Assembly (NCBI GenBank): GCA_964016885.1
Contig: OZ024742.1
Coordinates: 91,884,001-91,948,000 of the forward strand
Direction: 5' to 3'
Source of the DNA: Eledone cirrhosa
Lineage: Eukaryota
DNA length: 64,000 nucleotides
The notes beneath the pieces were generated by a model, which was not told where the DNA came from, searched no databases, and saw only the letters and a list, made by a program, of their open reading frames with translations. A program made the position numbers and the translations under genes. Below, piece by piece: positions 9,784 to 40,650 of the stretch. The stretch's first letter is position 1. The number at the start of each line of letters is the position of its first letter.

Positions 9784-12446
9784 TATTGTTATACTTTGGG
9801 AGGGTCATGTTGCCAATAAGAAACACACGCACCAGTTGCTTTCACTTCAATTTATTATAATAAATTTATAAATTTAGGAATTTATAAATTTCCGGTTGGT
9901 TGGTTGGTTCCACAACCAGGTAGTTGTTTATATATTGTCAAAGTTCTTTCGTTACACATTCTGTGACCTCTTCAGTGACTGGGGATTCTTTTCTTTGTTT
10001 TTGTGCCTCTCTTTTGTTCTGTCCTACGCCATTTTGTTTCTGTGTGTGTGTTGTGTGCTCAGTCTGCGCATGCGCCACATCCGGGTGTCTGTGTGTGTTT
10101 ATATTCGTTTATTTATTTGTTTATTTACATGTTACAGGTTGGTTGTTTGTTCTATGTGCGTGTGTGTTTTCATTTTGTCCTTAATTGTAAGTTGTGATGT
10201 TGCTGTTCCACTCATATTTTCTATTTAATTTTGGTTGTAATTCTTTTATGTTTATTGCCTCTGTGATTTGTCTAAACATTGCGCCTTTTTCTGTGTGTAG
10301 ATTCTATTTTTATTTCTATCTTCTCTAATTTACCCTTATGTTCTATTTTAGCATGTTGGTAGAGTACAGATGATTCATTACTATCTTGAAGGTCTCGCCA
10401 GTGTTCATTTATCCGTTCCCCTACACTACGAGCTGTCTCACGTATGTACACTATATTTTTGTCTCTACATTGTCCTTCCGTACATCTTATGCTATATACT
10501 ACATTTCTAGTGTTACAGTTAATATGGGGACTTAATTTACAGGTTAATTTACACCTACCATTACCTCAATGGCCAAGAAAACCCACACAGATAGATGGAA
10601 TGGGTGGACCAGAGCCATACGGACACCCGAAAACCACGATGAACTGAAGGAAATGATTGCACATGCGGTGGGGGCCAGCATAAAATTAACCCTTAATGAA
10701 CATATGTTCAAATTTAATGGAAAAACATATGCCCAAGAGGGGAGCAGCCATTGGTGTTAGCATTGCAGGCGACATAGCTAACTTATTCATGGTATGGTGG
10801 GACAGTAGACTTAAACTTAAACTTAAAGAACAATTAGAAGACCCCTTAACCCTGATAATGTACTCCCGCTACGTTGATGATATAAACATCGTAGTTAAAA
10901 CACCCCCACTAGAGAACAGTCAGGGATTAGAGAAAAACACAATGAAATGCATCCAGCAAATAGCTAACTCCATCCACCAGAGTATTAGAGTTACTATAGA
11001 CTACCCAAGTAAACACCCCAACCATCGATTACCTGTACTAGACACAGAGCTCTAGTTAGATACTATTAATAACAAAAAACAAATCCTCCATTCCCATTAT
11101 GCCAAACCCATGACTTCCAAATATCTGATCCACCGAAACTCAGCTGTTTCGGACCATACCAAAATCAACATACTGATTGCGGATTTGGTACGGGTGATGA
11201 GAAACGTGTCCCGCATGTGCAACCCCGAAGAACTAGAGAGACACATACAACACTTCATCCACCGTATGCAGTTCTCTGGTTACAATCAGAGAGATAAAAT
11301 CAGAGTGTATAGAGGAGCCAGAACCAATGGGAAAAAATGGTAAATAATGACACAAATGGGACCTGCCCCTTATATAGGAGCAAATTTTGGAATAGAATAG
11401 AAAGAACTAGGAATAAGGCTAATAGAATAAACTCATGGTATGATAGCAATAAATACTAGAGTCTAATGTTCATCGATACAACCCCTAGAGGTGAACTAGC
11501 TTACAAATTTAGAAGGGCCCTAGATAAACATAAACTCAATATTAAGATAGTAGATAGACCAGGTACCTCCGTAAAAACACTTATTAGCAAGACATACCCT
11601 TTTCTAAGACCCCCCCCTGTATAGATAAGAAATGTATAACCTGTAAATTAAGCCCTCATATTAACTGTAAAACTAGAAATGTAGTATATAGCATAAGATG
11701 TACGGAAGGACAATGTAGAAACAAAAATATAGTGTACATACGTGAGACAGCTCGTAGTGTAGGGGAACGGATAAATGAACACTGGCGAGACCTTCAAGAT
11801 AGTAAAGAATCATCTGTACTCTACCAACATGCTAAAATAGAACATAAGGGTAAATTAGAGAAGATAGAAATAAAAATAGAGTCTACACACAGAAAAGGTG
11901 CAATGTTTAGACAAATCACAGAGGCAATAAACATAAAAGAATTACAACCAAAATTAAATAGAAAATATGAGTGGAACAGCAACATCACAACTTACAATTA
12001 AGGACAAAATGAAAACACACAAGCACATAGAACAAACAACCAACCTGTAACATGTAAATAAACAAATAAATAAACGAATATAAACACACACAGACACCCG
12101 GATGTGGCGCATGCGCAGACTGAGCACACAACACACACACAGAAACAAAATGGCGTAGGACAGAACAAAGGAGAGGCACAAAAACAAAGAAAAGAATCCC
12201 CAGTCACTGAAGAGGTCACAGAATGTGTGACGAAAGAACTTTGACAATATATAAACAACTACCTGGTTGTGGAACCAACCAACCAACCGGAAATTTATAA
12301 ATTCCTAATTTTATAAATTTATTATAATAAATTGAAGTGAAAGCATCTGGTGCGTGTGTTTCTTATTGGCAACATGACCCTCCCAAAGTATAACAATATC
12401 GGTTTCAACACACGTTTTCAGATAAAGAATCTTGATAAACAAATTC
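9784..12446 (+). mobile_element. Penelope-like element with about 760 bp inverted arms and a 3' tail
   Basis: 9784-10546 is the reverse complement of 11637-12398. Internal RT fragments (GAAIG, RYVDD, LPVLD) and GIY-YIG (VVYSI, YIRET, RINEH). Tail 12399-12446; (TA)n flanks. Confidence 0.9.
12203..12245 (+). ncRNA. Minimal type I hammerhead ribozyme candidate (family A)
   Basis: GTCA-CTGAAGA-G-GTCACA gaatg TGTGAC-GAAA-GAAC-TT-TGAC. Inverted copies near 9937-9979 and 23519-23561. Confidence 0.55.
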
Positions 12447-12649
12447 ATATATATATATATATATATATATATACACGCATACAGTCATATATACACATGC
12501 ATACGCTCAACCATTTCTCTCAACATTTAATATTAGGTGGTAGTAAATGTGTAGTGTACCTCCGAGGGCTGTTTTCCGTTTCAATTATCACATGTTTGAG
12601 TGTCCTCCACTTAAACTTTGTTCACTGGATTTTTTTTTCATATATATTT

Positions 12650-13705
12650 AACGTTGAAGCTACTATATCCGGGACATGTGATGGCATTGTTTTTTTTTTT
12701 GTTTTTTTTTTTCAATTTTTGTATATTTCCGAAAATGTTCGTTTTCCCACCATATCTTCAAGAAAGGGAAAATTAGTGATTTTCCCTTTCAGCAATTTGC
12801 AAAATGTTCGCTGCAAGTGTGTTTCTGCTGTAGGGGTCTCTAAGTTGTTGTTTATGGACCCCTACTCTATCATTTAGACTTGTTCTCGTTTTCCCAATGT
12901 AATATTCTTTACATTGTGAACAGATAGCACAATAAATTACGTTTTTGGATTTGCAATTCATACTTGCGTTGATTTCAAGATCATATTGTTTTCAAAAGTG
13001 ATTTATCCATCCTCTTCAATATATTCTCAAGTTCCATATCGGCTGTCCCCACATGTTCCATTTCTGAAGTAAATCTAGTTTTGGTCAGTAGTTTCTTTAC
13101 GTTGCATGCCTGGCGTCTACTATAAATTTTATCCGATTCCTTTAAGATTTCATTCATTTTGGGGGACTGTTGGAGAATCGAGAGATATAACTTGACAGTT
13201 CCTGGGATTATAAGTGATAACAAAAGTGATAATTTGTTTTGTTGGACTGTTTTCTAAGTATTATCACTGGAATGTTCAGGGCCTTGGAGATGGCCGTAAT
13301 ATACCAGATTGACAGAATATTCTTCTCTTTCAAGAAATTCTTTCACTTCATCTAATCTTTTTCCCTTAATGCAAGATTTGTCACTATGGAGCAAATACGT
13401 CATGCTATATTGAATGGAATGTTCCTTTTCGTATGTGAAGGATGTGCTCAACGGAAATTTAGGTACTGGTGTGTGTCTATCGGTTTGTAGCAGAGATCTG
13501 TTTTAATATCTTCCCCATCTTTAATAATTAAGATGTTTTAAATATGTAGTTCCTTTGTACTCCATTCCATTGTGAATTGTATTGATTCGTGTAGTTTATT
13601 TAGGAGAGAATGGAACCTTTTCGGGTATTTTAGGTTACTATTCCAGAAGGTGAAGCAGTCATCTAGATATCGTTTCTAGTTGCTCTTTATATAGATGACA
13701 AACTC
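12650..13705 (-). mobile_element. Degenerate Penelope-like element fragment
   Basis: GIY-YIG NCKSKNVIYCAICSQCKEYYIGKT (12773-12961); RYLDD codons near 13657-13672. Confidence 0.8.
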
Positions 13706-13806
13706 ATGGGTGAACGTTACCTCTAGTATATATATACATATATATATATATATATATATATATATATATATATATATATATATATATATGTGTGTGTGTG
13801 TGTGTG

Positions 13807-38835: not shown

Positions 38836-39042
38836 TATATATATATATATATATATATATATATATATATATATATATATATATATATATATATATATAT
38901 ATATATATAATATAAATATATATAAAGCAGAACTGACTGATCAGCCAGTCTGCTAATATGCAAATCAGGCCGATCAGTCACTGTGTATTTTTGGAAATAG
39001 CATATATTTTCACTAGCTCTGACAGTTTGGCAGGTGAACAGT

Positions 39043-39092
39043 GAGCTGTACTGATGATGGGTGCTACCCAGAAACATTAGCGTCTGCAGTTC
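39043..39092 (+). ncRNA. Type I hammerhead ribozyme, canonical core
   Basis: GAGCTGTA-CTGATGA-TGGGT gct ACCCA-GAAA-C attagc G-TC-TGCAGTTC; GUC site. Confidence 0.85.
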
Positions 39093-40408
39093 TGTGTACA
39101 TGCCAACACAAGAGCAAGAATGAAGTGTTCATTCTCCTGACATGGCTATAAAATTGAGGGTTGTTTGCAAAATTGCAAACCAATCGAATGTTATTAATAT
39201 TTGAGGTTAACTTTACCTTTCATCCTAACGGGGTCGATAAAATAAAGTACCAGTAATACACTGGGACAATTGCTGGCCTTGTGCCAAAAGTAGAAACAGT
39301 TATTAATATTCGAAAAACTCACATTACATTTAATATATATATATATATATATATATATATATATATATATATATATATATATATCCAAAGCCCGGAAATT
39401 GTGTTGTAATTGGATGTAAATATATATTTTCGTTAATTATTTCAGTTTTTCCTCTTTACTATTTCTAGCGACGACTTTGACATCTATAAACCTAAACTTT
39501 AATTGAATTCTGATAAAGTGAAAAAAAAGAGACACATACATATAGCGTATGTTTCCTATATAAATATAAATATATATATATATATATATGTGTGTGTGTA
39601 TGTTGTGCGTGTGTCAGTGTATGTATGTATGCATGTATATATGTATATGTGTCTCTTAATAAGACGTTATCAAAATGCCCACCGTTAAAGCCATAATATC
39701 ATGTGACGGACGTGACTATGCGATACCAGGAAATAGTGATAACATTCTAGCCCGAGTTTATAGGTTTGCAACACGACTACTTCTAATAAATAATAAATAC
39801 GATTTGGGAGGAACAGAAGACAACAGTTGTTTGTTGCTATTTATTATTTATTATTCAAGGGCGGTGTATTGGTAGTATCGGTAGAGGGTCGGACGCCATT
39901 CTTTCTAGCATAGTTACGTCCCTTTACAGTAATGTACTGGGTAATTGCTGGCCTTGTGCCTAAAGTAGAAACAATTATTTATTATTCATCTTATTTTATT
40001 TAATTAGTTATTTTTGTTATTTCAATTTTACGTGTCAATAATAATTTGATTAGCTGGGCGGTCAGTCAATGTTTTGTTAGTAATAAAGTTTTAGACAATC
40101 TGCTTATGCGAGCCGATTTTAAATTTCATTAATTTCACTAACACACTTGAAGAAAGAGGCGACGAATTGGCTCTGTAGCGAGTTAATGCACGACGGCTCG
40201 CGCTTGCCGTTTCGATAGTAAGTTGTCGAGCAATAACTCTTTACAAAACCTACTCTCTACTTTCCAAAATATTGAATTCTTACCTGAATAGTGGTCTTAG
40301 CTGGTAACTTTCAATCTCACCCTCACTCTCTCTGTCAATTTCTCTCTCTCTCTCTCTCTCTCTCTCTATATATATATATATATATATATATATATATATA
40401 TATATATA

Positions 40409-40650
40409 TGTTGTTATACTTTGGGAGGGTCATGTTGCTAATAAGAAACACACGCACCAGTTGCTTTCACTTCAATTTATGAATTAAATTTATAAATTTA
40501 GGAATTTATAAATTTCCGGTAATAAATTGAAATGAAAGCAACTGGTGCGTGTGTTTCTTATTGGCAACATGACCCTCCCAAAGTATAACAATATCGGTTT
40601 CAATACACGTTTTCAGATAAAGAATCTTGCTAAACAAATTCAGAAACGAA
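40409..40650 (+). mobile_element. Minimal family A hairpin with tail
   Basis: Same boundary and tail as 9784-12446; only about 240 bp. Confidence 0.85.

What the first reader, a model, noticed from the sequence alone, without database searches (positions are those of the whole stretch)
9784..40650. Fixed inversion breakpoint in three independent copies of very different length
Seen: family A copies of 2.66 kb (9784), 0.51 kb (23371) and 0.24 kb (40409) all start the tail-less arm at the same (TA/TG)TTGTTATACTTTGGGAGGGTCAT. All three end with the same tail CGGTTTCAA(C/T)ACACG..AAACAAATTC, and only the inner truncation points vary. A sister family (9581, 16962) uses the same boundary motif with a different tail. 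Inference: a defined internal reverse-transcription start about 50-60 nt from the RNA 3' end, used alongside a second start at the very end.
Basis: partly seen in the sequence, partly recalled or inferred. Interest (0 to 1): 0.75.

Follow-up and report, generated by a model that had tools for sequence, protein, structure and literature searches.

The report
Penelope insertions: two starts, one RNA
These are mirror-image insertions of a Penelope-type jumping gene whose two outer ends stop at two fixed points 60 bases apart, nearly always one end at each, likely because both strands of the cut target DNA start copying the same RNA at two internal sites; the layout and the internal starts are already described, and the one-start-per-end pairing on one RNA is the added detail.

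Summary
The copies are 5'-truncated, head-to-head pairs of a Penelope-like retroelement (RT, Cys linker, GIY-YIG; 4.15-kb unit; intact 1,268-aa ORF elsewhere), inserted in (TA)n. Of 18,831 arms intact to the boundary, 8,482 exit into (TA)n there (site 1) and 8,582 continue into a 60-nt tail ending at site 2. Two internal RT starts bounding a tail were shown in vitro in 2024 (PMC11167929). Added here: 38 of 39 two-armed insertions have one end at each site; either arm can be the longer (15:15:8); some second arms are tail fragments only; in two insertions both arms share locus-private A>G edits, pointing to one sense RNA; both sites carry AT microhomology to the target; inner ends peak at a promoter-like motif. 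The scan noted similar coupling, edits and breakpoint clusters earlier on other DNA of this genome. Best model: coupled double priming on one RNA (0.65). A known kind with useful mechanistic evidence.

The parts
9783..10546 (-). Family A copy 1: tail-less inverted arm (764 nt; end of the GIY-YIG coding region and 3' repeat), outer end at site 1 in (TA)n
   Evidence: (98.3% to 11637-12399)
10547..12399 (+). Family A copy 1: sense arm, 5'-truncated; RT C-terminal half, thumb, Cys linker and GIY-YIG at 10548-12001, broken by stops and frameshifts, then the 3' repeat up to site 1
   Evidence: RVT_1 E 0.0017; 84-97% identity to P0001
12147..12155 (+). AAAATGGCG motif (YY1/initiator-like, label recalled); 13 of 109 sampled arms have their 5' end here, a likely transcription start
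12203..12245 (+). Predicted minimal hammerhead ribozyme (CUGAAGA, unpaired G, 5-bp stem II, GAAA, 2-bp stem III; predicted cut after 12241); mirror copy at 9937-9979 on the minus strand
   Evidence: (63 of 70 arms keep CTGANGA..GAAA); not detected by Rfam
12374..12399 (+). ORF start codon (12374) through site 1 (AATAT|C, ORF nt 22-26), the fixed outer breakpoint
12400..12447 (+). Tail of copy 1 (48 nt, a rare short end); codes for ORF codons 9-25
23370..23622 (-). Family A copy 2: tail-less arm, the longer arm of this copy; inner end at the AAGATGGCG motif
23622..23823 (+). Family A copy 2: sense arm, from just before the hammerhead to site 1
23824..23883 (+). Full 60-nt tail ending at site 2 (AATAT|C, ORF nt 82-86), then (TA)n
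40411..40594 (.). Family A copy 3: near-equal inverted arms joined in an AT-rich internal palindrome (about 40481-40517)
40595..40654 (+). Full 60-nt tail of copy 3, ending at site 2
9580..9644 (-). Family B tail-less arm (65 nt) ending at site 1
9642..9660 (+). Family B second arm consisting only of the last 19 nt of the tail (ends at site 2, never reaches site 1; 3-nt overlap with the other arm)
   Evidence: (family B tail sequence)
16960..17002 (-). Family B tail, ending at a minor site (CTA, 43 nt) also seen in L177 and L185
17003..17335 (.). Family B head-to-head arms (left about 17003-17088, tail-bearing; right to 17335, tail-less)

Best explanation
These are insertions of a Penelope-like retrotransposon whose two outer ends sit at two fixed points in the start of its reading frame, almost always one end at each, likely because the enzyme cuts both strands of a TA repeat and the two DNA ends prime copying of one and the same sense RNA at two internal sites. 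Shown: element identity; two end sites (ORF nt 22-26 and 82-86), both internal to the tandem unit; one-of-each pairing; independent arm lengths; AT microhomology at both sites; shared private A>G edits in both arms of two insertions. Inferred: the GIY-YIG domain nicks both strands of (TA)n. A protein pair bound at the repeat/ORF junction starts one cDNA at site 1 and the other at site 2, with AUAU or UAU of the RNA pairing with the TA primer to set the register. The site-2 enzyme follows and displaces the first cDNA. Each cDNA stops at random, or runs off the RNA 5' end about 260 nt upstream of site 1, and the two cDNA ends are joined by end-joining repair with little microhomology. The 60 nt between the sites is the tail. 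Tail-less or tail-bearing single arms are events whose second cDNA was very short or lost.
For: Genome-wide 8,482 tail-less versus 8,582 tail-bearing ends among 18,831 arms intact to AACAAT. In 67 regions taken around the first 100 anchors of contig C1, 52 of 109 ends lie at site 1 (within 4 nt) and 54 at site 2. 38 of 39 two-armed insertions have one of each, binomial p 7e-11 (hand tally; test), and so do all 8 tandem-containing insertions checked. Longer arm: tail 15, tail-less 15, within 15 nt 8, of 38. Second arms made only of tail-end sequence occur in L074, L085 and window 9642-9660. Arms of one insertion differ by a median 1.8% versus 6.9% between insertions (22 pairs of at least 150 nt). 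In L115 both arms share 28 A>G changes, the tail-less arm is the longer (478 versus 203 nt), and the pattern occurs only in these two arms genome-wide. L068 behaves likewise. Of 258 segments, 4 have A>G clusters and none has T>C clusters on the sense strand. Family B (67% identical protein over the RT-EN part) ends at the same two ORF positions. Two internal RT starts, cleavage and extension of both strands, and a predicted dimer are reported for the anole element PAc.
Against: No biochemical test was done on this family. The one-RNA argument rests on two edited insertions plus overall arm similarity, and gene conversion between close arms could mimic both, although outside the two edited pairs only 9 private alleles are shared by both arms against about 151 single-arm ones (after dropping the misaligned L073 pair). 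8 of 40 pairs have near-equal arms (2.1 expected, p 0.0004), as fold-back predicts. In L068 the tail arm copies the upstream repeat, not the distal one (72 versus 4 sites), which fits fold-back equally well; in the other 7 tandems the test was uninformative. Exceptions: L121 has two tails and L135 none. 32 of 39 apparent single arms had no recognisable partner. PAc showed no strand difference in start site and no homology to the cut DNA. Copying one RNA stretch twice needs strand displacement, which is untested. Target-site duplications cannot be read in (TA)n.
Confidence: 0.65

Rival explanations
1. Fold-back or self-priming: one cDNA (or an antisense RNA, as proposed for rotifer Penelope elements) folds back and copies itself, and the copy stops at the other AT site.
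For: Near-equal arms in 8 of 40 pairs (p 0.0004) and a 26-nt palindromic junction in L065b; L170 has equal arms; in L068 the inverted arm matches the adjacent upstream repeat. It explains arm identity directly. Proposed in PMC3846280 (passages).
Against: The tail-less arm is longer in 15 of 38 pairs although the tail lies on the other arm, and tail-only second arms exist: neither can be copied from the partner arm. Edits are A>G on the sense strand and never T>C, against an antisense template. Equal arms also follow if both cDNAs run off the same RNA end. It may account for a minority of insertions.
Confidence: 0.12
2. Dual priming on two separate RNA molecules (one per subunit, each subunit fixed to a different site), with arm similarity due to a shared source locus or later gene conversion.
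For: It explains independent arm lengths and avoids copying one RNA stretch twice; some pairs differ by 5-9% (L094, L096, L133). The concept is described for L1 (PMC2837659, passages).
Against: Two molecules would not share 28 locus-private edits; conversion looks rare (9 shared private versus about 151 single-arm alleles); it gives no simple reason for one-of-each pairing.
Confidence: 0.12
3. One RT start plus endonuclease resolution: the tail-less end is made by the endonuclease cutting a DNA intermediate at the target-like ATAT of site 1, as suggested for the tail in PMC8557442.
For: Both sites resemble the (TA)n target; the D. virilis endonuclease needs the tail for recognition (cited in PMC11167929); PMC8557442 attributes the tail to EN-mediated resolution.
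Against: It needs a hairpin or double-stranded intermediate holding both arms, which the longer tail-less arms and tail-only arms do not fit; PAc starts at both tail ends in vitro.
Confidence: 0.09
4. The short copies are internal deletions of one amplified DNA element with terminal inverted repeats (MITE-like).
For: Long inverted arms and TA flanks superficially resemble such elements.
Against: Inner junctions differ from copy to copy, the tail sits on one end only, either arm can be longer, full-length units encode RT and GIY-YIG, and RNA-editing marks are present.
Confidence: 0.01

Closest known systems
PAc, Poseidon element of Anolis carolinensis (Frangieh et al. 2024, PMC11167929; read: abstract, main text, start of methods, keyword passages; supplementary figures not seen)
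   Same: Two RT start sites inside the start of the ORF, with the tail between them; hammerhead upstream of the starts; AT-rich target; both target strands cut and extended; tandem units.
   Different: Tail 60 nt versus 30-40; sites at ORF nt 22-26 and 82-86 versus 111-118 onward; both sites here carry ATAT/TAT matching the target, whereas PAc starts at a non-homologous site; Cys linker present here. In the text read, the paper does not treat inverted insertions or one-site-per-end pairing.
Neptune/Nematis-type C-terminal EN+ Penelope-like elements (Craig et al. 2021, PMC8557442; keyword passages and supplement rows)
   Same: RT, CX2-5CxxC linker, GIY-YIG with CCHH; partial tandems; inverted 5'-truncated copy; tail at one end only; (TA)n preference; hammerhead in the repeat.
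   Different: DKS instead of DKG and PPKF instead of GxKF; a long Asn/His/Thr-rich insert; longer tail. Clade not placed by a tree.
Penelope families of Adineta vaga (PMC3846280; keyword passages)
   Same: Repeat includes the first ORF codons and the tail extends them (12 to 22 aa there, 9 to 29 here); head-to-head inverted repeats; Asn-rich inserts.
   Different: That paper proposes self-priming on an antisense template; the A>G edits here point to the sense RNA.
L1 twin priming and dual priming (PMC2837659; keyword passages)
   Same: Both nicked target strands prime cDNA, giving an inverted insertion.
   Different: In L1 twin priming the second start is variable and upstream, so arms do not overlap; here both starts are fixed, 60 nt apart, and both arms duplicate the same region.

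Membership tests
Canonical EN+ Penelope-like element | [quoted passage not shown] | tested here: met
   Intact 1,268-aa ORF in L171 with YVDD at 904 and VVY..YIGET at about 1175-1196. RVT_1 only weak (E 0.0009, below cut-off; none for full P0001). GIY-YIG is found in homologues P0039 (E 6.6e-7) and P0024, not in P0001 itself.
Canonical EN+ Penelope-like element | Partial-tandem repeats (pLTR), inverted 5'-truncated copy, optional tail at one end | tested here: met
   4,151-nt unit in L068; tail 60 nt rather than 30-40.
Canonical EN+ Penelope-like element | Hammerhead motif in the repeat, sense strand | tested here: met
   Core and stems in 63 of 70 arms; a different stem II with the same core in family B; Rfam missed it; cleavage not tested.
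Canonical EN+ Penelope-like element | CCHH motif with two Cys between the GIY and YIG halves | tested here: met
   SIRCTEGQC..YIGET..NEH..QH in P0001; the two-Cys pattern in 13 of 19 homologues with YIGE[TS].
Canonical EN+ Penelope-like element | RT initiation at two internal sites (biochemical) | not testable with these tools
   Inferred from genomic ends only.
Neptune/Nematis type | CX2-5CxxC linker before the endonuclease | tested here: met
   CIDKKCITC at 1153 of P0001; 17 of 19 homologues.
Neptune/Nematis type | DKG and GxKF/Y motifs | tested here: inconclusive
   DKS in P0001 and in 18 of the 19 proteins scored, PPKF at 226: variants of the motifs.
Neptune/Nematis type | Placement in the clade on an RT tree | not tested
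   No named Neptune or Nematis reference proteins were among the stored sequences.
Hydra clade | Under 3 kb, DKT, CxCX5C linker, no CCHH | tested here: not met
   4.15-kb unit, DKS, CX4CX2C linker, CCHH present (criteria; Hydra-1_Obim rows look unrelated by eye).
Naiad/Chlamys | N-terminal endonuclease, no canonical hammerhead | tested here: not met
   The endonuclease is C-terminal and a hammerhead motif is present.
MITE / DNA transposon | Symmetric terminal inverted repeats with a shared internal junction | tested here: not met
   Asymmetric ends, variable inner junctions.

The most novel reading that the evidence does not exclude
Penelope-like elements insert by obligate asymmetric double priming: one protein pair assigns each end of the cut (TA)n target to a different fixed site on a single sense RNA and copies the same stretch twice. 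This would explain the tail, the head-to-head palindromes and the lack of a conventional second-strand step, and ADAR edits frozen in both arms would be its in vivo record.
Probability: 0.5. Interest if true: 0.72.

Novelty: new member of a known kind. Interest (0 to 1): 0.48.

Why it matters
How Penelope-like elements, the sister group of telomerase RTs, make their inverted, one-tailed insertions is still open: the 2024 in vitro work found two start sites but left later steps unresolved, and earlier papers proposed antisense self-priming or endonuclease resolution. This family has more than 20,000 young arm ends and intact ORFs. It gives counts that separate the models (one site per end, independent arm lengths, shared sense-strand edits) and a direct substrate for testing them. 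It also suggests that target microhomology helps set the start in (TA)n-targeting clades.

Tried and rejected
Rfam scan of 9000-41000: 111 matches at E up to 5, all below gathering score, hairpin or microsatellite noise, no hammerhead. A hammerhead-like string on the antisense strand of the tail was considered and dropped: its core is imperfect and the real motif is on the sense strand upstream. The sequence after the tail in L013 looked like the element's continuation but is unique in the genome (1 match) and has no ORF; the real continuation came from L068. Folding around the two sites gave only weak hairpins in family A (z 0.70 and -0.65) and z -2.54 for the family B piece, partly from flanking TA, so a 'twin hairpin' rule was neither shown nor excluded. 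Inner-junction microhomology is modest: 5 of 40 with 3 nt or more versus 2% in simulated junctions; 24 of 40 had inserts or unresolved junctions versus 41% in the null. Upstream-versus-downstream origin of the inverted arm was informative in only 1 of 8 tandems. Sequencing-run search: no RNA holder listed, which says nothing on expression. No Atlas result and no dimer prediction were obtained, so the protein pair remains an inference from PAc. Look-ups of earlier notes by sequence and near this place returned nothing.
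Full report
1. Observation. Each is a head-to-head pair of 3' ends: a tail-less arm starting at ATATTGTTATAC directly in (TA)n (9783, 23370, 40411) and a partner arm that passes the same motif and continues into a tail. In copy 1 the arms are 98.3% identical over 764 nt. Copies 2 and 3 have a 60-nt tail; copy 1's is 48 nt, an end found 30 times in the genome against 11,874 for the modal end. Family B shares the motif and has another tail.

2. Identity. Copy 1's sense arm encodes broken RT, thumb, Cys-linker and GIY-YIG pieces. 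A near full-length unit of 4,151 nt lies in L068, and uninterrupted ORFs occur in L166, L170 and L171 (1,268 aa from the Met). The protein has a CX4CX2C linker, the CCHH pattern, DKS and YVDD. By the criteria in PMC8557442 (passages) this is Neptune/Nematis-like and neither Hydra nor Naiad; no tree was built. The best named homologue is labelled Octopus vulgaris (68%), so an octopus host is inferred. A minimal hammerhead motif lies on the sense strand about 160-200 nt upstream of the breakpoint (63 of 70 arms), as described for these elements (PMC4209133, first quarter read).

3. The two ends are fixed and both are internal. A 33-mer inside the boundary has 22,806 exact matches. Of 18,831 arms intact to AACAAT, 8,482 continue as TATATA and 8,582 as the tail, together 90.6%; the remainder includes point mutations. 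In 67 regions fetched around the first 100 anchors of contig C1 (biased to young copies and to one chromosome stretch), 52 of 109 ends fall at site 1 and 54 at site 2; of the other three, two are indel artefacts that reach site 2 and one is a true shorter end. The ATG lies 26 nt before site 1 and the tail is codons 9-29. 446 junctions read through site 2 into the ORF (12 of the 100 listed are one 46-bp array). Any coding copy must therefore be a partial tandem, and its mRNA holds both sites internally. Both sites read AATAT|C in family A, so the junction with (TA)n is ambiguous over 4-5 nt. Family B (67% identical over RT-EN; 11,496 anchors) ends at the same ORF positions, AATAT and CTAT. Minor ends also fall at A, AT or TA, which fits pairing with the primer but could also be later erosion by the microsatellite.

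4. The ends are coupled. Tallied by hand, the C1 sample holds 39 two-armed insertions with both outer ends intact; 38 have one end at each site and L121 has two tails (p 7e-11 against independent choice). I left out L083, L088, L089 and L097 (inverted pieces without an intact second end) and counted L106 as two insertions. Outside this sample L135 has no tail. All 8 tandem-containing insertions examined have one of each. 32 of 39 apparent single arms had no recognisable partner.

5. The arms are made independently but from one template. Among 38 one-of-each pairs (30 from the C1 sample, 5 picked from later lists, 3 from the window) the tail arm is longer in 15, the tail-less arm in 15, and 8 are within 15 nt. 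Second arms consisting only of tail-end sequence occur in L074, L085 and at window 9642-9660. Neither class can arise by copying the partner arm. Yet arms of one insertion are close relatives (median 1.8% versus 6.9%, 22 pairs). In L115 both arms share 28 changes, all A>G on the sense strand, the pattern expected of ADAR hyper-editing (established knowledge); the pattern occurs twice in the genome, in these two arms, and the tail-less arm is the longer. L068 shows the same (44 A>G among 73 shared changes; private), though there fold-back also fits. Of 258 segments in 129 loci, 4 carry A>G clusters, these four arms, and none T>C. Gene conversion could mimic this but looks rare (9 shared private versus about 151 single-arm alleles outside the edited pairs, L073 dropped as misaligned).

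6. Inner ends. Copy 2's tail-less arm ends there. The motif resembles a YY1 site near transcription starts (recalled), so these are likely run-offs at the RNA 5' end. That would mean priming at the upstream junction of the mRNA. Near-equal arms are enriched (8 of 40, 2.1 expected), which fits either run-off from one RNA end or a fold-back minority. Microhomology at inner junctions is modest.

7. Mechanism. Shown: identity, two internal end sites, pairing, independent lengths, shared sense-strand edits, AT microhomology. Inferred: double-strand cleavage of (TA)n, priming of both ends on one RNA by a protein pair, displacement of the first cDNA by the second enzyme, end-joining. Confidence 0.65; rivals are fold-back 0.12, two RNAs 0.12, endonuclease resolution 0.09, DNA-element deletion 0.01.

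8. What is known. The inverted copy with a tail at one end is standard anatomy (PMC8557442, passages; PMC3846280, passages). Two internal RT starts bounding the tail, with both strands cut and extended and a predicted dimer, were shown for the anole element (PMC11167929, parts 1-2 of 4 and keyword passages). In six full-text searches and the passages read I found no statement of one-site-per-end pairing, a single shared sense template, or target microhomology at both sites. I did not see that paper's supplementary figures, Arkhipova 2006 or Pyatkov 2004, which may bear on this. PMC13282606 and bioRxiv 2026.07.22.740005 (keyword passages) added nothing on the ends. Earlier notes of this scan reported the one-tail pairing, promoter-site clustering and frozen edits in other families on other DNA of this genome; they are not independent support, and I tested these points here on my own data. 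Several of them name the Hydra clade, which this family does not fit.

9. Verdict. Real; a new member of a known kind. The counts discriminate between published models and define a direct experiment. Interest 0.48.

Noticed in passing
window 36634-38839: An unrelated Penelope-like insertion with the same layout: arms 36665-36996 and 38508-38839, a tail of about 33 nt on the left arm only, the right arm ending in (TA)n, and a Cys-linker GIY-YIG frame at about 37888-38527 on the minus strand.
   Followed up: partly
L115:522-1202 and L068:4681-6831: ADAR-type A>G hyper-edited patches fixed in DNA in both arms, covering the hammerhead region; each pattern is private to its locus.
   Followed up: yes
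G000:C1:132947043-132947579: Twelve copies of the tail-end/ORF junction at a 46-bp period, a minisatellite built from the site-2 region.
   Followed up: no
L202 and L203 (G000:C1:14381668-14395790): Family B array of about 4,146-bp units with tail-less and tail-bearing outer ends; two units carry the same break between the N-terminal and RT frames.
   Followed up: partly
P0001 residues about 258-480 (L171): Asn/His/Thr-rich low-complexity insert between the N-terminal domain and RT, variable in length between copies, like the inserts reported in rotifer Penelope elements.
   Followed up: no
L080:8702 and L114:517 flanks; window 9580-9783: Family A and family B insertions often sit back to back in the same (TA)n tract, as here, 120 nt apart.
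   Followed up: no
window 49370-50763 / 62566-64000, 35936-36404 / 53861-54329, 52453-52841 / 59886-60274: Other long inverted repeat pairs, 7-17 kb apart and 93-99% alike; the first pair may be an inverted duplication running off the window end; not identified.
   Followed up: partly
window 58308-58610 and 12836-12976: Weak matches to the RT (40%) and endonuclease (37%) of P0001 on the minus strand: older Penelope-like remnants.
   Followed up: no
window 56888-57419: A frame with an FADD motif, likely a fragment of a non-LTR (RTE-like) reverse transcriptase (label recalled).
   Followed up: no
window 13808-13965 and 14425-14556: Direct repeat of about 130 nt about 620 nt apart, following a (TA)n(TG)n tract, with CTGAAN-free ends; resembles a partial tandem of another retroelement (seen).
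   Followed up: no
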